Positions 4,914 through 32,398 of a stretch of DNA of 64,000 nt are shown here, piece by piece. The DNA comes from an uncultured Chloroflexia bacterium (GTDB taxonomy: Bacteria; Chloroflexota; Limnocylindria; Limnocylindrales; CSP1-4). Position 1 is the first letter of the stretch; each line of letters starts with the position of its first letter. Under the pieces are notes generated by a model. The model was not told where the DNA came from. It worked only from the letters and a program-made list of their open reading frames with translations, and did not search any database. The stretch spans positions 1,859-65,858 of the forward strand of contig CAVPHB010000002.1 in the NCBI GenBank assembly GCA_963704145.1, written 5' to 3'. A program made the position numbers and the translations under genes.

Positions 4914-5234
4914 ATGCGTAAGCGCAAGGTCAACTACCCGCCGGCCAAGACGGCCACCAAGCGGGCCCCGGCGCCGGCCCCCGACCCGACCTTCGAGCGC
5001 CCCAACCTGGCCACGATCAACCTTCAAGCCGGCGCAGGCCGAGCGGGCTTTGCCGTCGGCGACCGCGTACGCATCGAGGCCGCGGGCATCTACGCCGGCC
5101 AGATCGCGGTCATCGAGCGACTCAGCAGCGGAGTCATCCCATCCGCGCTGGTGCGCACCGACAGTGGCGGCACCCGCCAGGTCCGAACGATCGATCTCGT
5201 TGCCGCGCCCGCGGAGCCACCGCCCTCAGGCTGA
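4914..5234 (+). CDS. Hypothetical protein (106 aa)
   Basis: ORF with a plausible small beta-rich domain (GDRVRIEAAGIYAGQIAVIERL). No family recognised. Confidence 0.4.
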   Translation: MRKRKVNYPPAKTATKRAPAPAPDPTFERPNLATINLQAGAGRAGFAVGDRVRIEAAGIYAGQIAVIERLSSGVIPSALVRTDSGGTRQVRTIDLVAAPAEPPPSG

Positions 5235-5723
5235 CCCGACGCGGGTGTCCTCTTTCGTTGGGACGGCGAGCAGTTTGAGGATGCGCGCCCTGATGGCCGA
5301 AGCGGTGGCCGAAGCGGTGGCCGGAGCGTCGAACTCGAGCAGCGTCCATTCGTCGGCCGGACCCGACTCGTCGTCGTCCGTGCGGACGATGCACACGCCG
5401 TCCCAGAAACCGTCGCGCCCGAAGCCCGGCTGGCCACCCTGGTCGAGCGCTCGAAACGGGAGCACCAGGCTGCCGTGGTCCATCTGCAGGAACTTGGCCG
5501 TTATGCGCATCAGCGGGTACGGCCCGCCGCGGTGCGCCGGGCTCCAACGGTAGGCAGCGCCGCGGCGCTCGACGTAGATGAGCGGCGTGAACGGGATCGC
5601 GAGGGCGATGCCCTTGGCCACGATGTCGATCGTCGTGGCGTGGTTGATGCCCTGGGCGAGGCTTACGCGCTCCGGATTCGGCCGCGCGCCAACGGCGCCG
5701 GCAGGATTGGATGACATCCCCAT
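5226..5723 (-). CDS. Hypothetical protein (165 aa)
   Basis: Non-repetitive ORF with an ordinary amino-acid composition. No family recognised. Confidence 0.45.
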   Translation of the reverse strand: MGMSSNPAGAVGARPNPERVSLAQGINHATTIDIVAKGIALAIPFTPLIYVERRGAAYRWSPAHRGGPYPLMRITAKFLQMDHGSLVLPFRALDQGGQPGFGRDGFWDGVCIVRTDDDESGPADEWTLLEFDAPATASATASAIRARILKLLAVPTKEDTRVGSA

Positions 5724-5889
5724 CTCCTATCGCACCTGGCAGTGGCACCGTGCCGACATGAGGGATGTCGGTGGTTGCCGGGCCGTCAACGAGCCAGGAC
5801 TCTCGGGCCGCTCTGGATAGGCGCCGCGCGTCTGTGCGCGGCAGCTCCCATTCTACGCTGCGGGTCGGTCGGGGAGACGCCCGCAGAAG

Positions 5890-6316: not shown

Positions 6317-6829
6317 CTATTTGGCGGCCGGGCTGGGTATCGCGCCCGACTCCTCGCCCGCCACCAGCGCGACGACCGGCTCGTAGGCAGCCCACAGGCT
6401 GCTGAACTTGCTGGCCGAGATGAACGGCCGCAGCATCACCAGGCCGAGCGCGGCGCACGACGCGTCGATAAAGGCCATCTCGTGGGCCGGCGGGAGGTCT
6501 TCCGAGAATGCGGTCTCATGCTGCCCATCCCAGGCGTTGACCGCGGCCACGTGCTCCAGGGTGCGCGGCTGCTCGTGGACTGCTGCCGCGTACGCCTTCG
6601 CGGCGGCACGGGCAATCTCGGTCGCCTCGTGGCGCATGGCGAACCACTCCTCCCGGAGTCCGGAGTCGTCCAGCGCGGTGGCCAGCGCATCCTCAAGCTT
6701 CTCGACCGAGTTGGCGCCGTAGCCATCCTCGAGCTTCTTCCAGCGTCGCGCCGGCAGCTCGCGCAGGTATGCCAGCAACCACTCGACCTGCTGCGTGTTC
6801 GGGCCGTACATGTCCCCAATGGTAGCCAT
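6317..6829 (-). CDS. Hypothetical protein (170 aa, helical)
   Basis: Non-repetitive ORF. No family recognised. Confidence 0.45.
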   Translation of the reverse strand: MATIGDMYGPNTQQVEWLLAYLRELPARRWKKLEDGYGANSVEKLEDALATALDDSGLREEWFAMRHEATEIARAAAKAYAAAVHEQPRTLEHVAAVNAWDGQHETAFSEDLPPAHEMAFIDASCAALGLVMLRPFISASKFSSLWAAYEPVVALVAGEESGAIPSPAAK

Positions 6830-6913
6830 GCCTGCACGGCACGCCCGAGACGCGCTGACCCCGCCGGCTGGTTGAGTCGGTTCGGTGGCTAGACGGGCGC
6901 GGACGGCGCCGGC

Positions 6914-7276: not shown

Positions 7277-8443
7277 CTACCGCCACAGGTCGCCGTATGG
7301 ATGGTCGCCGCGCAGCTGCTTGCCGGCCGCGAAGCGCCCCGGATCGAACATCGAGATGTCTGCACTGGCCGCGGCGCCGTCGAGGATCAGCTCGGCGACG
7401 GCCAGGCCCACCGCGGGCGCGATCTTGAAGCCCGTCCCGGAAAAGCCGGTCTGGAATACCAGCCCGTCCGGGCCGTAGCGGCCGATGATCGCGCGCTGGT
7501 CGGCGGTGATCCCGTCCGTGCCCCCGTGCGAGCCGCGGAACTCGGACTGCGCGAAGGCCGGCACGCGACGGCACAGCCGGTCGACCACGTGGTCGATGAA
7601 GGCTGGATCGCTGGGGCTGTCGTCGCCGGCCAGATCGTCGATCCGGTTGCCGTCCTCCAGGCCGACCAGCGCCAGCGTGTGCCCCTCGGGCCGGAAATAG
7701 AGCTCGTTGATGTCGTCGATGACCGTGGGCAGAGCGCCCTCCAGGGCGTCCGGGCGGGAGACGTAGCCCGTGTCGTGGTGCCAGGCGCGGATCTCCACCT
7801 TGACGCCGGCGGTCGCCGCCAGAGCAGCCGACCAGGCGCCCGCCGCAAGCACGACCACCGGTGCCGAGATCATGCCGCCCGCCATGCGCACACCGACCAC
7901 CCGCCCGTCATCGACCTCGATCGCCTGCACGACACTCGCCTGGCGCAGGACGGCGCCCTTCGCGCGGGCCGCGGCGAGCAGGGAGGTGCACGTGCTGGTC
8001 GGGTCGGCGTAGCCCGAGTCGGGCTCGTAGGCGGCGATGTTGAAGTCGTCGGTCACGAAGCCCGGGGCAAGGCGGGCGACGTCGGCGGCCGACACGACCG
8101 TGGTCGGGATGCCGATCCGCTGCTGGTCGGCCACGTTCGCACGCAGGTTGTCCTCTTGAGCCGGGGGCACGATGCGCACGAAACCGGTGCGCGTGAAGCC
8201 GGCGTCGCCGCCCACGCGCTGGGCCCAGTTGGTGAAGTAGTCGAACGACTTCCAGGCCAGCGCGCTCTCAGCGGCCAAGTCGTAGTGCATGCGCACCAGG
8301 CCGCTCGAGCGACCCGTCGCCGCGGAGCCGGCCACCGTCCGCTCGAGCACCATGACGCGAGCGCCGCGCTCGGCCAGGTGGAAAGCCGTGCTCGCGCCGT
8401 GCACCCCGGCACCGATCACGACGACATCGGCGATCTCGTTCAC
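7277..8443 (-). CDS. FAD-dependent oxidoreductase (DAO / sarcosine-oxidase-beta-like)
   Basis: Contains the ADVVVIGAGVHGASTAFHLAERGARVMVLE dinucleotide-binding fold. Full length, 388 aa, intact. Confidence 0.85.
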   Translation of the reverse strand: MNEIADVVVIGAGVHGASTAFHLAERGARVMVLERTVAGSAATGRSSGLVRMHYDLAAESALAWKSFDYFTNWAQRVGGDAGFTRTGFVRIVPPAQEDNLRANVADQQRIGIPTTVVSAADVARLAPGFVTDDFNIAAYEPDSGYADPTSTCTSLLAAARAKGAVLRQASVVQAIEVDDGRVVGVRMAGGMISAPVVVLAAGAWSAALAATAGVKVEIRAWHHDTGYVSRPDALEGALPTVIDDINELYFRPEGHTLALVGLEDGNRIDDLAGDDSPSDPAFIDHVVDRLCRRVPAFAQSEFRGSHGGTDGITADQRAIIGRYGPDGLVFQTGFSGTGFKIAPAVGLAVAELILDGAAASADISMFDPGRFAAGKQLRGDHPYGDLWR

Positions 8444-8554
8444 CCTCGCTCCTCCTGGCAGCGGTCCGCGTTGGATCAGACGTTAGCCGATCGAGTGTCG
8501 ACTGGGTCTGTGCTCGCACCGCCCGCTTCTCACCAAGGACGTCCATCCAGTCGG

Positions 8555-8805
8555 TGAGTCGGTCTTGTGGATCATCGACAGTCGGAGCTCCCTCTGCCCG
8601 GGCCGGCCGCGCGGGGTGCCGGCCGCGCGGGTGCCGGCCGCGGAGGTGCCGGCCGCGGGGGTGCCGGCCGCGCCGGGTGCCGGCCGCGCGGGGTGCCGGC
8701 CGCGGAGGTGCCGGCCGCGGGGGTGCCGGCCGCGCCGGGTGCCGGCCGCGCGGGGTGCCGGCCGCGCGGGGTGCCGTCCATGCCGCTGAGTCGGTTATGT
8801 GGATC
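8555..8805. repeat. GC-rich minisatellite (about 12 units of GGTGCCGGCCGCGNGG) bounded by two direct copies of the 20-nt core GTGAGTCGGTYWTGTGGATC
   Basis: The cores lie at 8555-8574 and 8786-8805. The 15-16-nt tandem units run from 8603 to 8778 with a higher-order ~63-nt periodicity. Confidence 0.85.
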
Positions 8806-9142
8806 AGTCTTCGAGCAGGCGGGCGAGCGTGGACGTCGCATCTGGGTTGAAGGGGTAAGCGCAGCTGTGCTGGTGCGGGCAGAAGCCGAAAGGAAAGTGC
8901 GGACCGATCGCCGTGGCGATGCGAATGACCCGTTCCGCGATCATGCCGGTGGCCAGTCCGCGCTCAAGGCGCGAGATGCCGCTCTGGCTGATGCCCGACA
9001 GCTCCGCCAAGCGCCGCTGCGACAGTCCAGCCTGGCGCCGACCATTCCGAAACCGGGCACCCACGATCACCATCTCGGGCACGGGCCAGACCAGGTATCG
9101 GCTGCCCTTCCAGGGGGTGCGCGCCCACGGGCCACCTTGCAT
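8804..9142 (-). CDS. XRE-family HTH transcriptional regulator
   Basis: GLSQRRLAELSGISQSGISRLERG helix-turn-helix. The alternative start at 9073 (MVIVGARFRNG) is more plausible. The stop codon lies inside a repeat core. Confidence 0.75.
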   Translation of the reverse strand: MQGGPWARTPWKGSRYLVWPVPEMVIVGARFRNGRRQAGLSQRRLAELSGISQSGISRLERGLATGMIAERVIRIATAIGPHFPFGFCPHQHSCAYPFNPDATSTLARLLED

Positions 9143-9203
9143 CGACCCATGAAAGCAGACGGCTCTTGTCGGTCGCTTACCCCCGACTCATCGCCCAATG
9201 CAT

Positions 9204-9640
9204 GATCCACGTAACCGACTCACTGCCGGGCAATGGTGCGCGAGCCCTACGGACAACGTATGGCGGCTCGGGACGACCTGATCCACGTAACCGACTCACT
9301 GCCGGGCAATGGTGCGCGAGCCCTACGGACAACGTATGGCGGCTCGGGACGACCTGATCTACGTAACCGACTCACTGACCGGGAGCTGGTGCCCGAGCCC
9401 TACGGACAAACGCATGGCGGCTCGGGACGACCTGATCCACGTAACCGACTCACTGACCGGGAGCTGGTGCGCGAGCCCTACGGACAAACGCATGGCGGCT
9501 CGGGACGGCCTGATCCACGTAACCGACTCACTGACCGGGAGCTGATACCCGAGCTCATTCGCAAGAACGGTCTTCGAACTCCGTGACGGGCAATGGTGCG
9601 CGAGCCCTACGGACAACGTATGGGGGCGCACCGACCCGAC
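9204..9640. repeat. Tandem array of five 76-78-bp units plus a partial sixth, each carrying the inverted core GATCCACGTAACCGACTCAC
   Basis: Core copies start at 9204, 9280, 9356, 9434 and 9512. There are two unit subtypes, (..GCAATGGTGCGCGAGCCCTACGGACAACGTATGGCGGCTCG..) and (..GAGCTGGTGCSCGAGCCCTACGGACAAACGCATGGCGGCTCG..). A partial unit lies at 9585-9630. Confidence 0.9.
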
Positions 9641-9641
9641 C

Positions 9642-11045
9642 CTAGTGGCGCGCGAGCCGCTCCTCGAGCGATCGGCCGCGGGGCGGCTGCCCAGACTGCT
9701 CGGACAGGCGGTCGACCCGGCCGAGGGCGGCCTGGGCGAAGCGCACGCCGAGCCAGCGCAACGGCTCGGGCTCCCACGCACGCGAGCGGTGGCCGACCAG
9801 CGGCAGCGCGGTGCGCGCGGTCTCTTGCCCGGTGATCAGCTCGGCCAGCGTTCGGCCACTGAGGTTGGCGGTCGAAACGCCGTGGCCGACGTAGCCGCGG
9901 GCGGTCGCCACCCCGGCAGCCCGGTCAAGGGCGATGGTTGGATGCCAGTCGCGCGGCATGCCCAGCGGACCGCCCCAGGCGTGGCTGAAGCGGACGCCGT
10001 GGCGGGCCAGCGCCGGGAACCACTCGCGCGCCAACGAGCGCAGCATCTCGTGCGTCGGTTCGTGCAGGTCGTACTCGTCGCGGATCGGCGACCCGAAGCG
10101 ATATGGCGCGCCACGGCCGCCGAACAACAGGCGGCCGTCGGACGTGCGCGACAGATAGACGACGGTGTAGCGCGGCGAGCCGATCAGTTCGTGCCCCTGC
10201 CAGCCGATCTCGGCCCACACAGCGTCGGGCAGCGGCTCGGTCAGCACGATCAGCGACCAGATCGGAATGAGCGAGCGATGCAGGCGGCGCAGGCGTGTCA
10301 GGTAGGCCTCGCCGGCGAGGACGATCGTGTCGGCCGTCACCGATCCACGGCGGGTTAGCAGCGCAGGCGGCGCATACGCCGACCGCGGCTGGAAGTCGGT
10401 GACCCCCGTCTGCTCGTGGATCGTGGCGCCCATGCGCTCGACCACCCGGGCCAGGCCGCGCGCCAGCTTGGCCGGCTGGATGGCCGCGGCGTCGGGCGTG
10501 AACAAGGCGGCCGTGGCTCGGCCGATGCGCAGGTGCGCGGAGAGTGCCGGTCCGTCGAGGAGCTGGTAGCGCGAGGCGAAGCCGAAGCGGTCCAGCTCGG
10601 CGAACTCGTCCTCGAGCTGGGGCGTCTCGTGCGGGCCGCGGGCGACAATCAGCTCGCCGCCGCGCCGCCAGTCGATATCGATCCCCTCCTCCACGGCCAC
10701 GCGGCCCACCTGGTCGACTGCCTCGAAGACTGCCTCGTACGTTGCCCGCGCGGCGTCGAAGCCGTGCAGCTTCTCCAGCCGGCCGAGCGAGATGTTGAGC
10801 CCCGGCGCGCACCACGCCCCGTTGCGTCCCGACGCGCCGAAGCCACAGATGTCGCGCTCCACGATCACGACGCGCAACGACGGCTGTGCGCGCAACAGGT
10901 AGTAGGCCGTCCACAGGCCGGTGTAGCCAGCGCCGAGGATGGCCACGTCGGCGTGGACGGATCCGTCCAAGGCCGGCCGCGAAGTCAGGTCATCGCCACA
11001 CGATTCGAGCCAGAACGAGACCAACGAGTAGTCGCGCGTGGTCAC
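9642..11045 (-). CDS. FAD-dependent oxidoreductase (PuuB/OrdL-like DAO family)
   Basis: ADVAILGAGYTGLWTAYYL...GFGASGRNGAWC and the C-terminus GYVGHGVSTANLSGRTLAELI. The start is set at GTG 11045. The longer ORF extension to 11549 is antisense to the divergent ALDH gene. Confidence 0.8.
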   Translation of the reverse strand: MTTRDYSLVSFWLESCGDDLTSRPALDGSVHADVAILGAGYTGLWTAYYLLRAQPSLRVVIVERDICGFGASGRNGAWCAPGLNISLGRLEKLHGFDAARATYEAVFEAVDQVGRVAVEEGIDIDWRRGGELIVARGPHETPQLEDEFAELDRFGFASRYQLLDGPALSAHLRIGRATAALFTPDAAAIQPAKLARGLARVVERMGATIHEQTGVTDFQPRSAYAPPALLTRRGSVTADTIVLAGEAYLTRLRRLHRSLIPIWSLIVLTEPLPDAVWAEIGWQGHELIGSPRYTVVYLSRTSDGRLLFGGRGAPYRFGSPIRDEYDLHEPTHEMLRSLAREWFPALARHGVRFSHAWGGPLGMPRDWHPTIALDRAAGVATARGYVGHGVSTANLSGRTLAELITGQETARTALPLVGHRSRAWEPEPLRWLGVRFAQAALGRVDRLSEQSGQPPRGRSLEERLARH

Positions 11046-11109
11046 GGTGATTACGATACGTGTACCCAGCACATCACAACCGAGCCTTGTTGCAGCAGAG
11101 GTCACCACC

Positions 11110-12563
11110 ATGACGCTTACGGCCACGCGTCGCAGCATGTTCATCAACGGAGAGTGGACGGACGCGGCGAACGGCGAAACGACATCGGTCATCAACCCCG
11201 CGACCGAGGAGGCCATCGGCGACGTGCCCAAGGGCGCCGAAGCCGATGCCGACCGCGCCGTGTCGGCCGCCCGGGCAGCGTTCGAGGACTGGTCGCAGAC
11301 CACCCCCGGCGAGCGGAGCCTGATGCTCTGGCGCTGGGCGCAGAAGATCGAGGACAGCAAGGCCGAGCTGTCGGCGCTCGAGTCGGCCAACGTCGGCAAG
11401 CCCAAGGGCGTGGCCGACTTCGACATCGACTTCAGCGTCGACAACCTGCGCTTCTTCGCCGGTGCCGCGCGCGTGCTCGAGGGCAAGGCGGCGGGCGAGT
11501 ACACCAAGGGCTGGACGAGCATGATCCGGCGTGAACCGGTCGGCGTCATCGGCCAGGTCGCGCCGTGGAACTACCCGTTGATGATGGCCATCTGGAAGCT
11601 CGGCCCGGCCCTCGCCGCGGGCAACACGGTGGTCCTCAAGCCGGCCTCGAGCGACGCCGCTGACCGCGCTGGCACTGGCCGAGCTGGCCGCCGACATCTT
11701 CCCCAAGGGCGTGCTCAACGTCATCACCGGGCCGGGCATGACGCTCGGCCAGCAGGCTGATGACGCACCCTGAAGTGGACATGGTCTCGCTGACCGGCGA
11801 CACGGCGACGGGCATCGAGATTGCCGCGGCGGCGGCACAGACGGTCAAGCGCGTCCACCTGGAGCTGGGCGGCAAGGCGCCGGTGGTGGTGTTCGACGAC
11901 GCCGATCTGGGCGCCGTGGTCGAGGCGGTCAAGCTGGCCGGCTTCTTCAACTCGGGCCAGGACTGCACCGCCGCGACGCGGATAATCGCGGGGAGTGGCG
12001 TCTACGAGAAGTTGCTCGCCGATTTAGTGCCGGCAATCCAGTCGCTCAAGGTGGGCAACCCGGCCGACGCCGAGGATCTCGACATGGGCCCGCTCGTGAG
12101 CGCCAGCCAGCGCGAGCGAGTGGCCGGCTACGTCGACCGGGCGCGCGGCTACGGTGCGAGCGTCGTGCTCGGCGGCGGCAGCGGTGCGCACGGCAACGGT
12201 CGCGGCTTCTTCTACGACCCGACCGTCGTGACCGACATCGGCCAGGACTCGGAGATCATCCAGCAGGAAGTGTTCGGCCCGGTCGTCACCGTGCAGCGCT
12301 TCAGCGACGACGAGGAGGCGATCCGCTGGGCCAACGGCGTCCCGTTCGGCCTCGCGTCGTCGGTCTGGACGCGCGACGTCAAGCGGGCACTCAACGCCGC
12401 GCGACGGTTGCGCTACGGGACGGTGTGGATCAACGACCACCTGACGATCGCGTCGGAGATGCCGCACGGTGGCTTCGGCCGCTCGGGCTACGGCAAGGAC
12501 ATGGGCATGTACTCGATCGAGGACTACACGATCGTCAAGCACGTCATGGCCAAGATCAGCTGA
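11110..12563 (+). pseudogene. patD: Gamma-aminobutyraldehyde dehydrogenase-like ALDH (PatD/YdcW-like), disrupted by two +1 frame changes
   Basis: It aligns along its whole length with the recalled E. coli YdcW/PatD (FFAGAARVLEGKAAGEY, APWNYPLMMA.WKL.PALAAGN.VVLKP, ELGGKAP, EMPHGG...SGYGKD). The frame moves 1 to 2 near 11653 and 2 to 3 near 11756. Confidence 0.85.
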
Positions 12564-12582
12564 CCGGCGAGCTCGTCCCCCG

Positions 12583-15498
12583 ATGACTGGCGGGCTGCCG
12601 ACCGGCGTCGTGACCTTTCTGTTCAGCGACGTCGAGGGCTCGACCAAGCTCCTGCACGAACTGGGCGACGGCTACGCCGCTGCGCTGCACGAGCATCGCC
12701 GCCTGCTCAGAGGGGCATTCGCGGCGCACGACGGCGTCGAGGTCGACACCCAGGGCGATGCCTTCTTCGTGGCCTTCGGCCGCGCGTCGGACGGCGTCGC
12801 CGCAGCGATCGACGCGCAACGCGCCCTGGCGGCCGGCCCGATCAAGGTCCGCATCGGCCTGCACACGGGCGAGCCGCGCCTGACTCCGGAAGGCTACGTC
12901 GGGCTCGACGTCCACAAGGGCGCGCGCATCGCCGCCGTGGGCCATGGCGGCCAGGTTCTGGTGTCGCAGGCGACGCGCGCGCTGGTCGAAGCCAGCGTGC
13001 GCGATCTCGGCCCGCATCGCCTGAAGGACCTGACCGCGCCCGAGCGCATCTTCCAGCTCGAGATAGAGGGCCTGCCGTCCGACTTCCCGCTGCTCAAGAC
13101 GCTCGAGGCGGGCATGCGCAACCTGCCCGCCGCGCGCACCTCGTTCGTGGGCCGCGAGACGGAGCTGGGTGAGATAGACAGGCTGCTGGGCGAGCCCGAC
13201 TGTCGGCTGCTGACGCTCGTCGGGCCGGGCGGCACGGGCAAGTCCAGGCTGGCCCTCGAGGCTGCCGGACGACGGATCGAGCACTACCCGCACGGCGTCC
13301 ACTACATACCCCTCGCCGGAGTGCCCGAGCCGGGCCTCCTCGCACCGGCCGTGGCCGAGGGACTGCAGTTCCAGGTCGACTTCGCCCACAGCGCCATACC
13401 TGCTCGCGATCAACTGGTCGATTACCTGCGCGATCGCTCGGCGCTGCTCGTGCTTGACAACTTCGAGCACCTGCTCGACGCACGAGACGTGGTCACGCAG
13501 ATCATCGACGAGGCGCCGCTGGTCGAGCTGCTGACCACATCGCGCGAGCGGCTGCAGGTGCAGAGCGAGTGGGTCATCGATGTGGCCGGGCTCGAGTTCG
13601 TTCCCGGCAACGGGCACGCTTCCGGTAACGGGCACGCTTCCGGTAACGGGCACGGCAGCGGGCACGGCAGCGGGCGCGGCAGCGGCAACGGTCACGCTGC
13701 CGACAGCCCGGCGACCCGGCTGTTCGTCGATCGCGCTCGGCACGTCGATCCGGCGTATGCCCTGACCGAAGCGGAGCGTCCGCACGTCGAGCGCATCTGC
13801 CGGATCGTCCACGGCATGCCGCTCGGCATCGAGCTTGCCGCGGCCTGGGTGTCGATGCTGTCGGCGGCAGAGATCGCCGACGAGATCGAGCGCAACCTCA
13901 GCTTCCTGCAGACCACCATGGCCGACGTGCCCGAGCGTCACCGCAGCCTGCGGGCGGCGTTTGACCAGTCGTGGCGGCTGCTCGCCGATGATGGGCGGCG
14001 CGTGTTCGCCCGGCTGTCCATCTTCCGCGGTGGCTTCACCCGCGAAGCAGCAGCAGCCGTGGCCGAGGCGGGCATCGTCCAGCTGCACGATCTCGTCGCC
14101 AAGTCGCTCGTGCGCCGGACCGAGCTGGGTCGCTTCGAGCTGCACGAGTTGCTGCGCCAGTACGCCGCCGAACGGCTGGCGGAGACAGCCGACGGGCAAG
14201 CCGCCACTGCCGAGCGACATGGCCGTTACTACGTCGGCATGCTCGGCGAGCGAAGAAGCGCGCTTGCGGGCCCGGGAATGGCCGAGGCGCGCGATGAGTT
14301 GCGCCGCGATCTCGACAACCTCCGCCTGGCGGCCGAATGGGTGGTCGGTCATGGATCCGATCAGGAGTCGTTTGCCCTGACGGCCGCACTCGGTCTGTTC
14401 TTCTTCGTCCACGGGCCATTCGAGGGCGCCCAGACGTTCGAGCGCCTGGCAGAGGCGGTGGGCGTGACGGGAGGCGTCGCAGTCGACCCGGCTTCGGTCT
14501 CCGATGCTGCGTTGTCTGTTCTCACCCACTGGGCGGTCGTGCGCACCGACCTGGGCTACGACGAGGAGACGGAGCAGCTGCTGCTCGCCCTCGTGCCCGT
14601 GCTGCGCGAGCGCGACCTGCGCGCCGACCTCGGCTACGCACTCTATGGATCTGGCGTCGTGGCTTGTTACGAGGACGTCTACGCCGATTCTGCGCGCTTC
14701 CTCGAGGAGGCAATTCCCCTGCTCAGGGCGGCGGGCGACCTGTTCTATGTGGGGGCCGCGCTGTCGTGGCTGGGCTTCGTCCGCTTGTTGCAGAACGATC
14801 TCGAGGCCGCGGGCAGGAACTTCAGGGAGTGTGATGCGGTCGCGCGCGAGTGTGGTCAGCCGCTCACACGCGCCTATGCGACGAGCAAGCTCGGCATCCT
14901 GGCCGATGCCGAGGGCCGTTACGCCGAGGCGATGCGCCTGCACATGGAGGCCAACGCCCTGTTCGAGAGCGTGGGCGACGTGGGCGGCACGGGCTACACG
15001 CTCAGCCGGGCCAGCCTGAGCGCGTTCGGCGTGGGCGACTTCGGCGAGGCGCTGCGCTTTGGGCGAGCCGGGTACGAGGCCTTCCGGCAGGTCAACCACC
15101 GCTGGGGCATGATCGGCGGGCTGTGCCGGATCGGTTTCGCAGAATTCGCTCTCGGCAGCAGTGACGAGGCACGCGATCACCTGCGCGACGCGCTCAGCCG
15201 TGCCCGCGAGTCCAAGGCGATCTCGCTCGAGCTGCTCGCCCTGAGCGGGATCGGGGCGGTGCTCGCCAAGGGTGATGATCCGAGCCGAGCCGCGCTGCTG
15301 CTCACGTTTGCGCTCGGCCACGAACAGCTGCCGGCCGCGTACGGTTTCGCCGCGCGGCCGGCGCTGGACGCGCTCGAGGCGTCGCTGACAGCCGACGAAC
15401 TGGCCGCCGTGCGCGAGGCAGCAGCCACGGCCGACCTCGACGAACTGGTGGCCAACGTGCTTGGAGAGCACACCCTGATTGGAGGTGGCAGCCCATGA
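12583..15498 (+). CDS. Class III adenylate/guanylate cyclase domain - AAA/NB-ARC ATPase - TPR (STAND-type) protein
   Basis: Cyclase signature VVTFLFSDVEGSTKL...VDTQGDAFFVAF...IGLHTGE and a Walker A motif LVGPGGTGKSRLA. The C-terminal region is helical and repeat-rich. 971 aa, intact. Confidence 0.85.
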   Translation: MTGGLPTGVVTFLFSDVEGSTKLLHELGDGYAAALHEHRRLLRGAFAAHDGVEVDTQGDAFFVAFGRASDGVAAAIDAQRALAAGPIKVRIGLHTGEPRLTPEGYVGLDVHKGARIAAVGHGGQVLVSQATRALVEASVRDLGPHRLKDLTAPERIFQLEIEGLPSDFPLLKTLEAGMRNLPAARTSFVGRETELGEIDRLLGEPDCRLLTLVGPGGTGKSRLALEAAGRRIEHYPHGVHYIPLAGVPEPGLLAPAVAEGLQFQVDFAHSAIPARDQLVDYLRDRSALLVLDNFEHLLDARDVVTQIIDEAPLVELLTTSRERLQVQSEWVIDVAGLEFVPGNGHASGNGHASGNGHGSGHGSGRGSGNGHAADSPATRLFVDRARHVDPAYALTEAERPHVERICRIVHGMPLGIELAAAWVSMLSAAEIADEIERNLSFLQTTMADVPERHRSLRAAFDQSWRLLADDGRRVFARLSIFRGGFTREAAAAVAEAGIVQLHDLVAKSLVRRTELGRFELHELLRQYAAERLAETADGQAATAERHGRYYVGMLGERRSALAGPGMAEARDELRRDLDNLRLAAEWVVGHGSDQESFALTAALGLFFFVHGPFEGAQTFERLAEAVGVTGGVAVDPASVSDAALSVLTHWAVVRTDLGYDEETEQLLLALVPVLRERDLRADLGYALYGSGVVACYEDVYADSARFLEEAIPLLRAAGDLFYVGAALSWLGFVRLLQNDLEAAGRNFRECDAVARECGQPLTRAYATSKLGILADAEGRYAEAMRLHMEANALFESVGDVGGTGYTLSRASLSAFGVGDFGEALRFGRAGYEAFRQVNHRWGMIGGLCRIGFAEFALGSSDEARDHLRDALSRARESKAISLELLALSGIGAVLAKGDDPSRAALLLTFALGHEQLPAAYGFAARPALDALEASLTADELAAVREAAATADLDELVANVLGEHTLIGGGSP

Positions 15499-16754: not shown

Positions 16755-16945
16755 CCGGCGGCACCCGCCGACCTGACCAGGGGGATCCGCCGACCCGACC
16801 TGAGCAGGGGGGATCCGCCGACCCGACCTGGGGACGTCCTACCTGCCGGTGAGTCGGTTACGTGGACCAGCCGGCGGTGCCGGGCCCGCGATGGGGCGCG
16901 AAGTGATCTGCCTAACTGACTCACTGACCGTCAGGCAGGCGCGCC
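16755..16945. repeat. Composite repeat: ~26-bp direct repeats (GGGGATCCGCCGACCCGACCTG, about 2.5 units) plus a hairpin-type copy of the 20-nt core family
   Basis: A direct core lies at 16849-16868 (GTGAGTCGGTTACGTGGACC) and an inverted variant at 16905-16924 (GATCTGCCTAACTGACTCAC). The outer arms CCTGCC/GGCAGG extend the pairing. Confidence 0.8.
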
Positions 16946-16967: not shown

Positions 16968-19900
16968 CTAGCGCGGGGCGGGCACCGTGCGAGGCTTGGC
17001 GGCGGCGGTCGGTGTATTTGGGCGACCGGCCGATCCGGCCAGCGCCGCTTCAAGTCGCTCGAGGTAGGGCTGCGCGCCCAGTCGGGCCAAGGTCAGCCGG
17101 GCGGCTTCGGCCGCGCTGCGCACCTCCGGCTCGTCCGGGCCCAGGAAGGCGACCATGTCGACCACGGTGAGCGCCTCGTCCCAGGCCAGCTTGAGCGCCC
17201 GCCAGCCGCCCAGCGTCTCGCGGTACAGCACCAATGCCTCGGCCGGACGACCTTCGAGGGCCAGGATTCCGGCGCGAACCGCCGCCTTGTCGAGCGCCAG
17301 CGCATGCCCGCGATACATCGTCCGACCCAGCACGTCCATCGCCTCGCGAGCGCCTGCCGCGTCCCCCGCCCAAAGCGATGCCCGCGCCGCCAGCGGTACA
17401 GAAAGGGGGTGGAAGTAGGACGTCGTCTCGGCGGCTCGTAGACCCTCCGTGCGCGCCTCGCCGAACCGGCCGGCGCTGAAGGCGGCCCATGCCCGGGCCC
17501 ACATGTCGTACGACTCGTACTGCGGGTCGGTGATCCCGACATGCATGGCCGTCCCACGCGCGATGTCTGCGGACGGGTCACCGCCCCGCAGCGCGTTCAG
17601 GATCGCGCGGTCCACGAAGAACTCGGAGAACTGGCCGGCGGCCGCGTCGGCCGGGATCCAGTCCTCCAGCAGGGCGGCGGCCCAATCCCACTCGCCCACG
17701 CGAATGGCACACACGACTCCATTGCCGACCATCAGGAAGCCGTACACGCTCGAGCCTATCTGGCGGGCGATCTCAAGGCCCTCGCGGGCCAGTTCGAGGC
17801 CTGCCGCCGGCTCGGCCCATTGCTCCCAGAAAGTGAGCAGCGTGCGCCCGCCGCGCTCACGGTCGCGAAATCCATTGGCCAGCGCCATGGCGTGAGCGCC
17901 GCGCAGGAGGAGCAGGCCTTCCCGCGGCCGATCTGTCCCAGCCAGGCTCACGCCCCTGCCGAGCAGCGCGCCGACCAATTCGTCGAGCAAGTCAAGGCGC
18001 TCGGCGATGGGGATGAGGCGATCGAGCCAGACGATCTCCTCTGCCGGCCGGTCCAGTTTGCCGTAGGCAGACGCGATCTGGCCCATCAGCTTGACGCCGA
18101 CCGGTGTCGCCTCCAGGTCGGCGAACTCATCCCACGCCGGCAGCAGCAACCCGAGCGCGCGGTTTGGATCGCCAAGGGAGTTGGAGACGGCCCGCGCGTG
18201 CGTGGCGACGGCGTCGGCGATCGCCGTGCGCTCGCCGAGCTCGCGCCGCGCGGCCAGCGCCTCCTCGGCGTGGCGCACGATGACATCCACCGACAGACCC
18301 TCGACCGCCGATTTCAGGGCACGCCCGTGCAGTTCGGCCCGCTCGGCTGTGTCGGTGGTCACCTCGAGCGCCTCCTCAAAGAAGGTGACCGCCTGCTCGT
18401 GCGAGCCGAGCGCCGCCGCCCGGTCTCCGGCACCGCGTAGGGCCACCCGGGCCTGCGCGGCGAGAGCGTCCGCCTCGGGCCCCTCCCCGGCCAGCCGATA
18501 CGCGGCCAGGTAGTGCCCGGCCAGCGCGCCGGCGGCTTCGCCCGTGGCCTGACCCTCGAGGTAACGCGCGGCGGCCAGGTGGCGCGCCTTGCGATCCTTC
18601 TTGGACAGCGTGTTGTAGGCCACCTCGCGAATGAGTGCCTGGACGAAGACGTACTGGCCCAGTTCCGGTGAGCGTGGGTCCGCCTCGCGACGCAGCAATT
18701 CGCGCCGCGCCAGCCCGGCCAGCCGCGCCTCGAGGGCGTCGGGCTTGACCCCGGCCAGTACTTCTAAGGCGCCCGGCGTGAAGCTCTGGCCGAGGACGGC
18801 CGCGTCGGCGATCAGGGCATGATCGGCCGCGTCCAGGCCATCGAGTCGCGCCGCGATAAGCGCGGTCAGCGTCTCGGGCACGGCGATGTCGTCGAGGTCG
18901 CCGGTTGGCCGGTAGACGCCGTCCTCGAGCGTCAGCCGGTCCTGCGCGAGGAGCATGCGCACCGTCTCGACGGCATACAGCGGGATCCCGTCGGCGCGGG
19001 CCACGATCGCCGCCGCCGCCCGCTCGGGCAGACCGGGCACGAGGCCGGCCAGCAGCTCGCGCATCTGGGCGTCAGCCAGCGGCTCGAGATAGATCGACGT
19101 GAAGCTGCGCTTGCCGGCACCCCAATTCGGGCGGCGTTCGAGCAGCTCGGGCCGGGCGAGAGTGATGATCGTGATCGGCGACGTGCGGCTCCACTCGAGC
19201 ACGTGGTCGATGAAGTCGAGCAGCCCCGGGTCGGCGAAATGGAGGTCCTCGAAGACCATCACCACCGGCAACTCGTCGGCCAGGCGCTCGAAGAACGTCC
19301 GCCACGCGCCGAACAGTTGCTGCGGGTCGACGCCCGACTCGAACCCGAGCAGGACCAGCAGCGCCCGCTCGATCGGTGCCCGCTCCGCGTCGCTGGGCAC
19401 ATGCTCGCGCACGGACGTGGCCAGCTTCTCGCGCGTGGTTTGTTCGTCATCCGATTCGAGCAGCCCGGCGCGGCCGCGGATCATCTCGCCCAGCGCCCAG
19501 AAGGTGATCCCGTCGCCGTACGCCGGGCTGCGCCCGTCGTGCCACCAGACGGTGTCCGACAGGCCGTCGATGTACTTCAGGAACTCCCACGCCAGGCGGC
19601 TCTTGCCGATCCCGCCCGGGCCGATGACCGACACCAGCCGCGGCCGCTCTTCCCGATTGGTAGCGTGAAACAGGTCCTTTAGCAGTCGCATCTCTTCGTC
19701 GCGGCCGACGAACGGCGCCTCGAGCGTCTCGCTCCGACCCCGACCACCGCGCTGGGCGACGACGCGCAGCGCGCGCCACGCAGCGACGGGCGTGCTCTTG
19801 CCCTTGAGTGCCTGGTCGCCCAGCTTCTCGAAGACGATCGCCTCGCTCGAGGCGCGCTGGGTCGCTTCACCGACCAGCACGGTCCCCGGTTCGGCCACGC

Positions 19901-20489
19901 CCTGCAGACGGGCGGCAGTATTGACCAGGTCACCCGCGACCATGCCCTGGTTCGTGGCGCCGAGGGTGACTGCTGCCTCGCCGGTCAGAACGCCCGCCCG
20001 CGCCTGGATGCCCGGGCCAAGGCCGCCGACGCCGGCCACCAGGTCGAGCGCCGCACGAACGGCGCGCTCGGCGTCGTCTTCCTGCGCCGTGGGCGCGCCC
20101 CAGACGGCCATCACCGCGTCACCTATGAACTTCTCGACCGTGCCGCCGTACAGCTCGATGACGTTGCGCGCCATATCGAAGTAGCGCGTCAGCGTCTCGC
20201 GCACGTCCTCTGCGTCGCGCTCCTCGGCGAACGGCGTGAACCCGACCAGGTCGGCGAACAGGATGCTGACCAGCCGCCGCTCGGCGCCTGGCTCCTGGGC
20301 CGCAGCGACCACCGGCACGGCGCCCGCCGCCAGCGGGGTCGCGCATTCGGAGCAGAACTTCGCACCGGGCAGGTTGGCGAAGCCGCAGCTCGGACAGGTC
20401 GCCGCCAGCGGACTGGCGCACTCCATGCAGAACTTGGCCCCGCCGAGGTTCTCGGTCCCACACTGCCCGCAGATCACGCGCAGGAGCAT
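16968..20489 (-). CDS. Double zinc-ribbon - class III nucleotide cyclase - AAA ATPase - TPR (STAND-type) protein
   Basis: CGQCGTENLGGAKFCMEC...CPSCGFANLPGAKFCSEC, then the cyclase signature ILFADLVGFTPF...KFIGDAVMAVWG, then a Walker A motif VIGPGGIGKSRLA. 1173 aa, intact. Confidence 0.85.
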   Translation of the reverse strand: MLLRVICGQCGTENLGGAKFCMECASPLAATCPSCGFANLPGAKFCSECATPLAAGAVPVVAAAQEPGAERRLVSILFADLVGFTPFAEERDAEDVRETLTRYFDMARNVIELYGGTVEKFIGDAVMAVWGAPTAQEDDAERAVRAALDLVAGVGGLGPGIQARAGVLTGEAAVTLGATNQGMVAGDLVNTAARLQGVAEPGTVLVGEATQRASSEAIVFEKLGDQALKGKSTPVAAWRALRVVAQRGGRGRSETLEAPFVGRDEEMRLLKDLFHATNREERPRLVSVIGPGGIGKSRLAWEFLKYIDGLSDTVWWHDGRSPAYGDGITFWALGEMIRGRAGLLESDDEQTTREKLATSVREHVPSDAERAPIERALLVLLGFESGVDPQQLFGAWRTFFERLADELPVVMVFEDLHFADPGLLDFIDHVLEWSRTSPITIITLARPELLERRPNWGAGKRSFTSIYLEPLADAQMRELLAGLVPGLPERAAAAIVARADGIPLYAVETVRMLLAQDRLTLEDGVYRPTGDLDDIAVPETLTALIAARLDGLDAADHALIADAAVLGQSFTPGALEVLAGVKPDALEARLAGLARRELLRREADPRSPELGQYVFVQALIREVAYNTLSKKDRKARHLAAARYLEGQATGEAAGALAGHYLAAYRLAGEGPEADALAAQARVALRGAGDRAAALGSHEQAVTFFEEALEVTTDTAERAELHGRALKSAVEGLSVDVIVRHAEEALAARRELGERTAIADAVATHARAVSNSLGDPNRALGLLLPAWDEFADLEATPVGVKLMGQIASAYGKLDRPAEEIVWLDRLIPIAERLDLLDELVGALLGRGVSLAGTDRPREGLLLLRGAHAMALANGFRDRERGGRTLLTFWEQWAEPAAGLELAREGLEIARQIGSSVYGFLMVGNGVVCAIRVGEWDWAAALLEDWIPADAAAGQFSEFFVDRAILNALRGGDPSADIARGTAMHVGITDPQYESYDMWARAWAAFSAGRFGEARTEGLRAAETTSYFHPLSVPLAARASLWAGDAAGAREAMDVLGRTMYRGHALALDKAAVRAGILALEGRPAEALVLYRETLGGWRALKLAWDEALTVVDMVAFLGPDEPEVRSAAEAARLTLARLGAQPYLERLEAALAGSAGRPNTPTAAAKPRTVPAPR

Positions 20490-22002: not shown

Positions 22003-22018
22003 CCGTCGCTGGCTGTCC

Positions 22019-22113
22019 GTGAGTCGGTTATGTGGATCTGTTGGGCGGTCGACGGTACGGCGCCCGGTGAGGCCGGCCGCGCAGCAAGGTGGTGATCTGC
22101 CTAACCGACTCAA
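22019..22113. repeat. Hairpin (MITE-like) copy of the 20-nt core family
   Basis: GTGAGTCGGTTATGTGGATC at 22019-22038 faces GATCTGCCTAACCGACTCAA at 22094-22113. It lies between two convergent aminotransferase genes. Confidence 0.8.
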
Positions 22114-32149: not shown

Positions 32150-32398
32150 ACGAGTCGGCTAGGTGGATCAAGGCGGCGGCTGGTCCGCCGCGGCTGGTCC
32201 GCGGCGGCTGGCTTGCGCGAGTCGGTTATGTGGATCAAGGCGGCGGCTGGTCCGCCGCGGCTGGCCCGCCGCGGCTGGCTTGCGCGAGTCGGTTATGTGG
32301 ATCAAGGCGGCGGCTGGTCCGCCGCGGCTGGTCCGCCGCGGCTGGCTTGCGGCGGACCAAGTGCGGGTCCGGGCCAGTGATCCACGAAACCGACTCAA
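32150..32398. repeat. Three direct 67-bp units, each starting with the core (G)CGAGTCGGYTAKGTGGATC, closed by one inverted core
   Basis: Direct cores lie at 32150-32169, 32217-32236 and 32284-32303. The inverted core GATCCACGAAACCGACTCAA lies at 32379-32398. The unit bodies are GC-rich GCGGCTGG repeats. Confidence 0.9.

What the first reader, a model, noticed from the sequence alone, without database searches (positions are those of the whole stretch)
9204..9640. Five-and-a-half-unit tandem array (76/78-bp period) immediately upstream of an XRE regulator gene
Seen in sequence: core copies recur at 9204, 9280, 9356, 9434 and 9512. Two near-identical unit subtypes are arranged A-A-B-B-B, followed by a partial A-type unit at 9585-9630. 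Each unit contains a CGAGCC..N18..GGCTCG hairpin. GGCTCG can also pair with CGAGCC of the next unit, so alternative structures are possible. The array fills the whole space between the XRE gene start (9142 or 9073) and the stop of the FAD oxidoreductase (9642).
Inference: this may be a repeated operator or promoter-proximal array, or a structured non-coding RNA array, rather than junk.
Basis: partly seen in the sequence, partly recalled or inferred. Interest (0 to 1): 0.7.

Follow-up and report, generated by a model that had tools for sequence, protein, structure and literature searches.

The report
Repeated binding-site array beside XRE gene
The tandem array is real, but its meaningful part is a 20-base motif at the head of each unit that also sits inverted behind the neighbouring XRE regulator gene, recurs at other intergenic sites, and brackets the same regulator in nine related uncultured Chloroflexota sequences, so it is most likely a multiplied binding site for that regulator and not a structured RNA.

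Summary
The array exists as described: units start at 9203, 9279, 9355, 9433 and 9511, with periods of 76 and 78 nt. The 5th unit is truncated, and only 4 units carry the CGAGCC/GGCTCG hairpin.

The hairpins and the whole array fold no better than shuffled sequence. The filler is not found in any other array. The structured-RNA reading is not supported.

The conserved element is the 20-nt head of each unit, TGATCCACGTAACCGACTCA.
- It occurs 16 times at 6 intergenic loci between 6.8 and 32.4 kb of the window.
- An inverted copy overlaps the stop codon of the XRE gene (8804-9142, minus strand), so the gene is bracketed by the motif.
- In all 9 homologous XRE loci retrieved (45-75% protein identity; Candidatus Limnocylindrales/Chloroflexota metagenomes) the gene is bracketed the same way. 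Copy number is 1-5, and the core TGAGTCGGTT is nearly invariant.
- Other copies form convergent pairs, several of them at synteny breakpoints.

Best reading: a VNTR-like amplification of an operator-like site of this uncharacterised XRE subfamily, which has a conserved FPFGFCPHxHxC tail. Protein binding is inferred, not shown. Rival readings are MITE/REPIN-like selfish repeats and RNA hairpins. I rate it a new variant of a known kind, of moderate interest.

The parts
8804..9142 (-). XRE-family HTH gene (112 aa). It has a conserved N-terminal PWxR..WPVPEMV segment and a C-terminal FPFGFCPHxHxC Cys/His motif. It is single copy in the window.
   Evidence: HTH_31 at 3.3e-9 and HTH_3 at 1.2e-8. NCBIfam hits cover the HTH only. 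Alignment A1 of 24 homologues. tblastn finds one copy. AlphaFold2 model pLDDT 81, with the HTH at residues 20-80 confident. Nearest solved structures are C.AhdI, C.BclI and ClgR.
9143..9202 (-). Non-repeated promoter-proximal block between the XRE start codon and the first array unit. It contains GCTTTCATGG just upstream of the ATG, GTAAGCG-type short repeats and a degenerate half motif, CCGACTCA, at 9183-9190.
   Evidence: The block aligns across 7 XRE loci (A3). Sequence read. No sigma-70 consensus promoter was found.
9203..9278 (+). Array unit 1 (A type, 76 nt): 20-nt motif TGATCCACGTAACCGACTCA followed by a 56-nt filler.
9279..9354 (+). Array unit 2 (A type, 76 nt), 100% identical to unit 1.
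9355..9432 (+). Array unit 3 (B type, 78 nt). The motif has one mismatch (TGATCTAC...).
9433..9510 (+). Array unit 4 (B type, 78 nt).
9511..9544 (+). Truncated unit 5: the motif plus 14 nt of B-type filler.
9545..9641 (+). Distal end of the intergenic region: unique sequence at 9545-9587, an A-type filler remnant without a motif at 9588-9623, then 18 nt up to the DAO stop codon at 9642. The remnant suggests that the A filler was the original flank that was co-amplified with the motif.
   Evidence: (D3).
8787..8806 (-). Inverted copy of the motif (reads TGATCCACATAACCGACTCA on the minus strand). Its first three bases are the XRE stop codon.
   Evidence: (I6-I10).
8555..8574 (-). Second inverted motif copy (2 mismatches), 112 nt upstream of the DAO gene 7277-8443 (minus strand).
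   Evidence: The orthologous position upstream of DAO in L033 is also occupied.
8602..8776 (.). GC-rich array with a 16-nt period (about 11 copies; 62-nt super-period) filling the space between the two downstream motif copies.
6873..6892 (-). Degenerate single motif copy (5 mismatches), 43 nt upstream of the 170-aa gene 6317-6829 (minus strand). It is orthologous to pair h in L033.
   Evidence: (E = 0.03).
16850..16923 (.). Convergent motif pair c (16850-16869 and 16904-16923), lying between the convergent saccharopine-dehydrogenase-like gene and the guanylate-cyclase/AAA_16 gene.
   Evidence: It folds as a long hairpin, z = -2.3. The orthologous site after the same gene in L033 is also occupied.
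22020..22112 (.). Convergent motif pair d (22020-22039 and 22093-22112), with no gene inside it. It lies at the site orthologous to where L031 and L010/L032 carry the XRE gene.
   Evidence: Hairpin z = -3.5.
32151..32397 (.). Cluster e: three tandem copies (67-nt period) at 32151, 32218 and 32285 in one orientation, and one opposed copy at 32378-32397, which lies 122 nt upstream of the GFO_IDH_MocA gene at 32520.

Best explanation
The array is a local, VNTR-like tandem amplification of one 20-nt site together with 56-58 nt of its outer flank.

The site has the form TGAGTCGGTT-N4-GGATCA when read in the sense of the XRE gene. It belongs to a lineage-specific family of interspersed sites that always bracket the gene of an uncharacterised XRE-family protein.

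Most likely (inferred, not shown), the motif is the DNA site recognised by that protein. The five upstream copies and the two inverted downstream copies would then be an operator array for autoregulation, possibly by looping or bridging across the gene. The copies at other intergenic sites nearby would be further targets: upstream of DAO, of a 170-aa gene and of a GFO_IDH gene.

The filler and its hairpins are passengers. Copy number drifts through unequal recombination or slippage between the repeated sites, and the same repeats act as recombination breakpoints that have reshuffled this gene neighbourhood.
For: SHOWN
1. The motif, not the filler, is the repeated entity. The window holds 15-16 copies at 6 intergenic loci against 0.06 expected.
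2. The XRE gene is bracketed by opposed copies here and in all 9 homologue loci examined: L009/L033, L010/L032, L011/L012, L027-29, L030, L031, L039 and L040, down to 45% protein identity.
3. Copy number beside the gene varies from 1 to 5 upstream and 1 to 3 downstream. Unit lengths differ (65-87 nt) and the fillers are unrelated.
4. The outer half TGAGTCGGTT is kept in 43/47 copies across genomes, while the inner half varies. The protein's recognition-helix region VSQSxISRLERG is nearly invariant.
5. At orthologous intergenic sites only the motif remains alignable.
6. The motif flanks the gene in inside-out orientation in L039, which does not fit fixed transposon termini.
7. Units 1 and 2 are 100% identical and units 3 and 4 are 96% identical, the pattern expected from recent neighbour duplication.
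8. Synteny breakpoints coincide with motif sites.

INFERRED
- The nearest solved relatives by sequence and by fold are R-M controller proteins C.AhdI and C.BclI. Their operators are built from GACT/AGTC half-sites (PMC2175313).
- The motif carries AGTC...GACT dyads in L010, L027, L030 and L031.
Against: - No binding data exist.
- In the window itself the internal dyad is weak (AGTC...GATC), and only one half of the motif is strongly conserved.
- Two of the dispersed sites (16850-16923 and 22020-22112) lie between convergent genes, where an operator has no obvious promoter to control.
- Spacing between copies (54-93 bp) shows no helical phasing.
- No consensus promoter was found in or next to the units.
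- Only 64 kb of this genome and 8-20 kb of each relative could be examined, so I cannot tell whether the family is local to this neighbourhood or genome-wide.
- The assembly shows frameshifted genes, so the exact unit number could be off.
Confidence: 0.5

Rival explanations
1. Selfish interspersed repeat, MITE-like or REPIN/BIME-like. The 20-28-nt arms are the ends of a small non-autonomous element that spreads or is maintained through a transposase or recombinase encoded elsewhere. The XRE gene is cargo, or a domesticated end-binding protein analogous to IS1 InsA, IS3 OrfA or a RAYT. Tandem arrays are BIME-like clusters produced by recombination at the arms.
For: - Convergent pairs fold as long hairpins, z = -3.5 and -2.3, and occur in convergent, divergent and co-directional intergenic regions.
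- In L033, two pairs share an internal 20-nt block, as copies of one element would.
- An empty pair in the window sits where L031 and L010 carry the XRE gene.
- The gene layout resembles an IS: an arm upstream and the stop codon inside the other arm.
- RAYT genes are flanked by inverted REPs in the same way (PMC3184786).
- A minisatellite inside a MITE is known: BrickBuilt (PMC4596501).
Against: - No target-site duplications were seen.
- The loops of the two window pairs are unrelated.
- A single arm is not a hairpin, unlike a REP.
- No transposase, RAYT or recombinase domain was found in 30 scanned ORFs or among the synteny-annotated genes of the window, L032 and L033.
- Arms are retained at orthologous sites across 15-30% nucleotide divergence while the surrounding sequence has decayed.
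- The inside-out arrangement in L039 is hard to reconcile with fixed termini.
Confidence: 0.25
2. RNA-level element. The opposed motif copies pair in transcripts, as 3' hairpins after convergent genes and as a long-range stem enclosing the XRE coding region. They would act as terminators, processing sites or stabilisers. The array would then offer five alternative 5' partners for the single 3' copy.
For: - The pairs at 16840-16933 and 22010-22122 fold at -43 and -56 kcal/mol, z = -2.3 and -3.5.
- Differences between partner arms are mostly transitions that leave G-U pairs on the plus strand (my reading).
- REP elements are known to stabilise mRNA (PMC3184786).
Against: - The left-type and right-type arm variants are shared between pairs, so the differences are subfamily traits and not independent compensatory changes.
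- In L033 the mismatches are not wobble-compatible on one strand.
- No terminator-like T-runs were found.
- Same-orientation tandem copies cannot pair with each other.
- The array as a whole is not more stable than shuffles.
Confidence: 0.12
3. Structured non-coding RNA array, including a guanidine-II-like reading. Every unit junction forms a small UCGGG-ACGR-CCUGA hairpin on the plus strand, and each unit has the CGAGCC/GGCTCG hairpin.
For: - There is a sub-threshold Rfam Guanidine-II hit: 21.3 bits, E = 0.04-0.12.
- Four ACGA/ACGG-loop mini-hairpins occur at 9268-9281, 9344-9357, 9422-9435 and 9500-9513 (sequence).
Against: - The score is below the 32-bit gathering threshold, and the alignment needs a 40-nt insertion in the first loop.
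- The hairpins are 76-78 nt apart, and no plus-strand gene follows them (the DAO gene is on the minus strand).
- Fold z-scores are about 0.
- The filler and junction sequences are absent from the arrays of other genomes.
Confidence: 0.03
4. Assembly artefact. The number of units, or the array itself, results from mis-assembly of a repeat in an error-prone long-read metagenome assembly.
For: - Several genes in the window are split by frameshifts: Aldedh at about 11760, Aminotran_3 at 20550-22003, and an Aldedh fragment at 57621-58697.
- Units 1 and 2 are identical.
Against: Independent assemblies from other samples show the same kind of arrays beside the homologous gene. Units 3-5 carry distinct substitutions.
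Confidence: 0.05

Closest known systems
Tandem operators flanking a Cro/CI-type repressor gene (phage lambda OR and OL, with looping)
   Same: An XRE/Cro-CI-fold protein whose gene has several copies of one roughly 17-20-bp site on both sides. Autoregulation by cooperative binding and looping is the natural analogy (my own knowledge of lambda; not tested here).
   Different: The sites here are 65-87 bp apart instead of 3-7 bp, and the filler is duplicated with them. Upstream and downstream sets are in opposed orientation. Copies also occur at distant intergenic sites. There is no phage context: no hits in phages or plasmids.
REP / BIME / REPIN elements with their RAYT gene
   Same: Short lineage-specific intergenic repeats occur singly, as inverted doublets that form hairpins, and in tandem clusters. 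A single-copy gene is flanked by opposed copies. There is an association with recombination (PMC3184786).
   Different: The flanked gene encodes an HTH-only XRE protein, not a Y1/HUH transposase. A single arm is not a hairpin. There is no GTAG head. Genome-wide abundance is unknown.
MITEs with internal minisatellites (BrickBuilt of Porphyromonas gingivalis)
   Same: Intergenic elements with inverted ends and tandem repeat blocks of variable number. They are species-restricted and may influence transcription (PMC4596501).
   Different: BrickBuilt repeats are 23-nt units without spacers inside one element. Here the repeated unit is the end itself plus its flank. No target-site duplication was seen. 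The elements are consistently linked to a regulator gene.
R-M controller (C) proteins and C-boxes
   Same: These are the closest solved structures by sequence and by fold (C.AhdI, C.BclI). Their operators are built from GACT/AGTC tetranucleotides, which also occur in this motif.
   Different: No restriction or methylase genes are nearby. The site architecture is AGTC-N8/9-GAYY, not GACT-N3-AGTC-N4-GACT-N3-AGTC. The protein has extra conserved N- and C-terminal segments.
MIRU-type VNTRs of mycobacteria
   Same: Tandem intergenic units of 40-100 bp between co-directional genes, whose number differs between related genomes (my own knowledge).
   Different: MIRUs are not headed by a motif that brackets a regulator gene. 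Variation within a population could not be tested here.

Membership tests
Operator array of an XRE/Cro-CI-type repressor | An adjacent gene encodes a Cro/CI-type HTH protein. | tested here: met
   HTH_31 and HTH_3 hits. The fold matches C.AhdI, ClgR and SinR.
Operator array of an XRE/Cro-CI-type repressor | The site is a 14-20-bp (pseudo)palindrome suited to a dimer. | tested here: inconclusive
   There is a clear AGTC-N8-GACT dyad in L027, L030, L010 and L031, but only AGTC...GATC in the window and L009. One half (TGAGTCGGTT) is far more conserved than the other.
Operator array of an XRE/Cro-CI-type repressor | The sites overlap or adjoin the promoter they control. | tested here: inconclusive
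   The nearest copy lies 60-130 nt upstream of the start codon in 7 loci. No sigma-70 consensus was found. Two loci lie between convergent genes.
Operator array of an XRE/Cro-CI-type repressor | The protein binds the site. | not testable with these tools
   This needs EMSA, footprinting or DAP-seq.
REP/BIME/REPIN-RAYT | Each repeat unit is itself a GC-rich hairpin, often preceded by GTAG. | tested here: not met
   The 20-nt arm has no internal stem and no GTAG.
REP/BIME/REPIN-RAYT | Inverted doublets form a hairpin, and tandem clusters occur. | tested here: met
   Pairs fold at z = -3.5 and -2.3. Clusters occur at 9203-9544 and 32151-32397, and in L032 and L033.
REP/BIME/REPIN-RAYT | A RAYT (Y1/HUH transposase) gene is flanked by opposed repeats. 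| tested here: not met
   The flanked gene is an XRE HTH protein with no catalytic domain. No Y1_Tnp domain was seen in the scanned ORFs or the annotated loci.
REP/BIME/REPIN-RAYT | Hundreds of copies per genome. | not testable with these tools
   Only 64 kb of this genome is available. The exact motif is absent from the public collections apart from chance singletons.
MITE | Terminal inverted repeats, size under about 400 bp, and no transposase. | tested here: met
   The pairs span 74-93 bp and have roughly 20-27-nt opposed arms.
MITE | Flanking target-site duplication. | tested here: not met
   No direct repeat flanks the pairs. The outer 7 nt follow a loose CNGYCNG consensus that belongs to the arm.
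MITE | The core sequence is shared by copies of the family. | tested here: inconclusive
   The window pairs c and d have unrelated loops. L033 pairs g and h share a 20-nt internal block.
MITE | The ends match those of an autonomous IS. | not testable with these tools
   No complete genome of the lineage is at hand.
Guanidine-II riboswitch (RF01068) | The score reaches the Rfam gathering threshold, with two ACGR-loop hairpins a short distance apart, upstream of a gene on the same strand. | tested here: not met
   The score is 21.3 bits against a threshold of 32. The first loop needs a 40-nt insertion. No plus-strand gene lies downstream.
R-M controller protein / C-box | The gene lies next to restriction and methylase genes, and the operator is GACT-N3-AGTC-N4-GACT-N3-AGTC. 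| tested here: not met
   The neighbours are DAO, Aldedh, aminotransferase and cyclase genes. The motif architecture differs.
VNTR / minisatellite | Tandem units whose number differs between related genomes. | tested here: met
   Upstream copies number 5 (window, L010), 2 (L009) and 1 (L011, L027, L030, L031). Downstream copies number 1-3. Variation within a population was not tested.

The most novel reading that the evidence does not exclude
The XRE-CPH protein and the 20-nt arms form a self-contained, relocating module. This would be a REPIN/RAYT-like partnership in which the dedicated protein is a helix-turn-helix-only DNA binder with no catalytic domain. The protein would bind the arms. 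The arms would multiply locally, recombine with one another and move the gene between pre-existing arm pairs, as suggested by the filled versus empty pair at the orthologous aminotransferase junction. In this way they would reshuffle gene order in Limnocylindrales genomes.
Probability: 0.15. Interest if true: 0.8.

Novelty: new variant of a known kind. Interest (0 to 1): 0.5.

Why it matters
If the inference holds, it pairs an uncharacterised but widespread XRE subfamily with its DNA site purely from genome architecture. The subfamily has a conserved Cys/His tail and is known only from metagenomes; the profile search found 41 cluster representatives at E <= 1e-30, a count that includes multi-HTH-repeat proteins alongside the single-domain members. 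The pairing gives a directly testable regulator-operator pair in an uncultured soil and freshwater lineage, Candidatus Limnocylindrales.

It also documents a new family of interspersed repeats in Chloroflexota.
- The repeats mark synteny breakpoints.
- They expand into tandem arrays.

This matters for MAG assembly, because repeats break contigs. It matters for understanding rearrangement of catabolic gene neighbourhoods. It also bears on the wider question of whether REP-like repeats can be maintained by proteins other than transposases.

Tried and rejected
- Rfam at gathering thresholds over the whole window found only a SAM riboswitch at 5724-5823. The permissive scan of the region gave one sub-threshold Guanidine-II hit, which I rejected on score, geometry and strand.
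- Folding single units and the whole array gave no excess stability.
- The promoter/terminator consensus scan of 8400-9800 found nothing.
- The coding reading fails. ORF 9233-9586 runs through the units, but the 76-nt units break the frame and there is no family hit (the first Pfam attempt failed on a coordinate error and was repeated as without that ORF).
- The exact-motif scan of 185,579 species genomes gave 8 chance singletons. The JGI metagenome scan gave 14 chance singletons with no partner arms. The viral contig scan gave 15 chance singletons. The window's genome is therefore not in these collections, and the exact variant is private to it.
- XRE relatives in viral contigs are generic HTH proteins lacking the Cys/His tail or the flanking arms. 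There are none in plasmids.
- There is no avoidance of GANTC or GATC in the window that would hint at a methylation or restriction role.
- An ECF-sigma promoter reading of GTAACC...: the would-be -10 part is not conserved between copies (inspection).
- A CRISPR reading fails because the spacers are near-identical to one another.
- Literature searches found no description of this repeat family or of an XRE-REP association.

Full report
OBSERVATION

The tandem array is real. Tandem Repeats Finder reports 9203-9544 with period 78, 4.4 copies, 95% matches and score 575.

The gap-free repeat search and my own extraction give the units:
- Units at 9203 and 9279 are 76 nt long and identical to each other.
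- Units at 9355 and 9433 are 78 nt long and match at 75 of 78 positions.
- A fifth unit at 9511 keeps only the first 34 nt.
- Unique sequence follows at 9545-9587. After it comes a remnant of the A-type filler without a motif (9588-9623), then the stop codon of the FAD oxidoreductase gene at 9642.

CGAGCC and GGCTCG are both present in four units only.

The XRE-family HTH gene lies at 8804-9142 on the minus strand, and a DAO-family oxidoreductase lies at 9642-11021 on the minus strand. An alignment of 24 homologues conserves residues upstream of the alternative start, so 9142 is the better start codon.

WHAT IS CONSERVED IS THE HEAD OF THE UNIT, NOT THE HAIRPIN

Each unit begins with TGATCCACGTAACCGACTCA. 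The window holds 15 matches with up to 3 mismatches, against 0.06 expected. A profile search raises this to 16 sites at six intergenic loci, all between 6.8 and 32.4 kb.

One copy in the opposite orientation (8787-8806) begins with the XRE stop codon. A second copy lies at 8555-8574. The gene is therefore bracketed, with five copies upstream and two opposed copies downstream.

The other loci are:
- a convergent pair at 16850-16923;
- a convergent pair at 22020-22112;
- a cluster at 32151-32397, with three copies at a 67-nt period facing one opposed copy;
- a degenerate single copy at 6873-6892.

The filler between motifs differs completely from array to array.

STRUCTURE TESTS

Single units fold no better than dinucleotide shuffles, with z from -1.8 to +0.65. 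The whole 499-nt region gives z = +1.0 on the XRE-sense strand and +0.06 on the other strand.

No Rfam family passes threshold. The only hit is Guanidine-II at 21.3 bits, against a gathering score of 32. It arises from small UCGGG-ACGR-CCUGA hairpins at the unit junctions and needs a 40-nt insertion. It is on the strand that has no downstream gene.

By contrast, the convergent motif pairs fold as long hairpins, z = -3.5 and -2.3.

RELATED GENOMES

The XRE protein has 38 homologues in the 5.8-billion-protein collection. All are from metagenomes. Two carry names that place them in Chloroflexota / Candidatus Limnocylindrales.

A profile search of 1.84 billion cluster representatives finds 41 at E <= 1e-30. 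Many are single-domain proteins of 100-200 aa that include the conserved C-terminal FPFGFCPHxHxC segment.

I retrieved nine independent homologue loci. In every one the gene is bracketed by opposed copies of a related motif, often in tandem:
- L009/L033: TGAGTCGGTTCTAAGGATCA, 2 copies upstream and 3 downstream, periods 65-68 nt.
- L010/L032: TGAGTCGCTTTACTGACTAG, 5 upstream (period 86 nt) and 3 downstream.
- L011/L012: CAGTCGGTTATGTGCAT, 1 upstream and 2-3 downstream.
- L027-L029: GAGTCCAATCGGAGACTCA, 1 and 1, perfectly complementary.
- L030: CAGTCGGTTGCGGCGACTGG, one copy on each side; the downstream copy is weaker (5 mismatches) and was found by inspection, not by the repeat finder.
- L031: GAGTCGGTTTGCTGACTA, 1 upstream and 2 downstream.
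- L039 (45% identity): the arrangement is inside-out, ...TTCCGACTCA - gene - TGAGTCGGAA, with 2 downstream copies.
- L040: TGAGTAGGTTCTGTGGCG.

Across 47 copies the outer ten bases, TGAGTCGGTT, are nearly invariant, and the inner half varies. The recognition-helix region of the protein is likewise nearly invariant.

Between the proximal copy and the start codon, seven loci share a separate conserved block. It has short RAAGYC repeats at a period of about 11 nt, then GCTTTCATGG. This is probably the core promoter region.

DISPERSED COPIES AND REARRANGEMENTS

The 20-kb loci L032 and L033 also carry convergent pairs away from the gene, in each genome's own motif variant. Two of the L033 pairs share an internal 20-nt block.

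The flanking genes are orthologous to window genes at 71-85% nucleotide identity, but they are arranged differently, and the differences fall at motif sites:
- In L031 and L010/L032 the XRE gene with its arms sits between two aminotransferase genes. At exactly that site the window has the empty pair 22020-22112.
- The single L033 site between the cyclase stop codon and the DAO start codon corresponds to two separate window sites: the pair at 16850-16923 after the cyclase gene, and the copies at 8555/8787 before DAO.
- The pair before a 170-aa gene in L033 corresponds to the degenerate copy at 6873.

In these orthologous spacers only the motif still aligns.

No transposase or recombinase domain appeared in 30 window ORFs or in the annotated relatives. 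No target-site duplications are visible.

INTERPRETATION

Shown:
- The array is a tandem amplification of one copy of an interspersed 20-nt motif together with its flank.
- The motif family is tied to this XRE subfamily across at least nine genomes.
- Copy number varies between genomes.
- Motif sites coincide with synteny breakpoints.

Inferred:
- The motif is the protein's binding site.
- The array is an operator array for autoregulation, possibly with bridging between the upstream and downstream sets.
- Other copies are further targets, or relics of rearrangement.

The protein's closest solved relatives are R-M controller proteins, which recognise GACT/AGTC half-sites (PMC2175313). Such tetranucleotides form a dyad in several of the motif variants. 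This is a resemblance only. None of the defining features of a C-protein system, such as R-M neighbours or the C-box architecture, is met.

The main rival is a selfish MITE/REPIN-like repeat with the XRE gene as cargo or as a domesticated end-binding protein.
- In its favour: the hairpin-forming pairs, the filled versus empty site, and the IS-like layout.
- Against it: the lack of target duplications, the unrelated loops, retention of arms at orthologous sites, the inside-out arrangement in L039, and the absence of any transposase.

An RNA-hairpin role for the pairs cannot be excluded, but it does not explain same-orientation arrays.

NOVELTY AND LIMITS

I found no paper describing this repeat family, the protein subfamily or such an association. 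I rate it a new variant of known kinds: operator arrays and REP/BIME-like interspersed repeats.

Limits:
- No binding or expression data exist.
- Only 64 kb of this genome is available, so genome-wide abundance is unknown.
- The assembly contains frameshifted genes, so the exact unit count needs read-level confirmation.

Noticed in passing
window 5724-5823 (-): SAM riboswitch (RF00162), 54.5 bits, above the gathering threshold. It lies upstream of the minus-strand ORF 5226-5723, which has no Pfam hit.
   Followed up: no
window 8602-8776: Very GC-rich array (88% GC) with a 16-nt period, GCCGGCCGCGCGGGGT x11, and a 62-nt super-period. It lies exactly between the two downstream motif copies.
   Followed up: partly
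window 9268-9281, 9344-9357, 9422-9435, 9500-9513 (+): Each unit junction forms a UCGGG-ACGR-CCUGA mini-hairpin, the loop type of guanidine-II riboswitches. The one A-to-G difference keeps ACGR. This is sub-threshold, on the strand without a downstream gene, and probably chance.
   Followed up: yes
window 9143-9202 and alignment A3 (L009, L010, L011, L027, L030, L031): A conserved block lies upstream of all XRE homologues. It has 2-4 RAAGYC(G) repeats at a period of about 11 nt, then GCTTTCATGG 6-9 nt before the start codon. This could be a second operator, or a promoter for a leaderless mRNA.
   Followed up: partly
XRE protein residues 83-94 (window 8861-8896, -): FPFGFCPHxHxC is invariant or nearly so in 24 homologues (C88, H90, C94). 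It may be a metal- or redox-sensing tail. It is modelled with low confidence (pLDDT 53-61).
   Followed up: partly
window 11038-12563; 20550-22003; 57621-58697: Aldehyde dehydrogenase and aminotransferase genes are split across reading frames, and an Aldedh fragment covers only profile positions 109-333. These are either indel errors of a long-read assembly or pseudogenes.
   Followed up: partly
L011 4614-5642: A 342-aa reverse-transcriptase (RVT_1) gene sits 150 nt beyond the downstream motif copies of the XRE module in one related genome.
   Followed up: no
window 30775-30860: A 12-nt tandem repeat, CGTTGGTGCGGC x6. ARAGORN calls an anticodon-less 'tRNA-???' on it, which is probably spurious. 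The true tRNA-Leu(CAG) is at 26803-26899.
   Followed up: no
window 13604-13691: In-frame 18-, 12- and 6-nt repeats inside the cyclase/AAA/TPR gene 12469-15498 encode GNGHAS/GHGS peptide repeats.
   Followed up: no
window 12469-15498 and 16968-20489; L009, L027, L030: Large guanylate-cyclase + AAA_16 (+TPR) genes recur next to the XRE module in several genomes, together with DAO, Aldedh, class-III aminotransferase, saccharopine-dehydrogenase and polyamine-type ABC transporter genes. This looks like an amine-catabolism neighbourhood that the regulator may serve.
   Followed up: partly
L033 16371-17017 and 19284-19917: Two PIN + RHH toxin-antitoxin pairs lie near the dispersed motif pairs in the related genome.
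   Followed up: no
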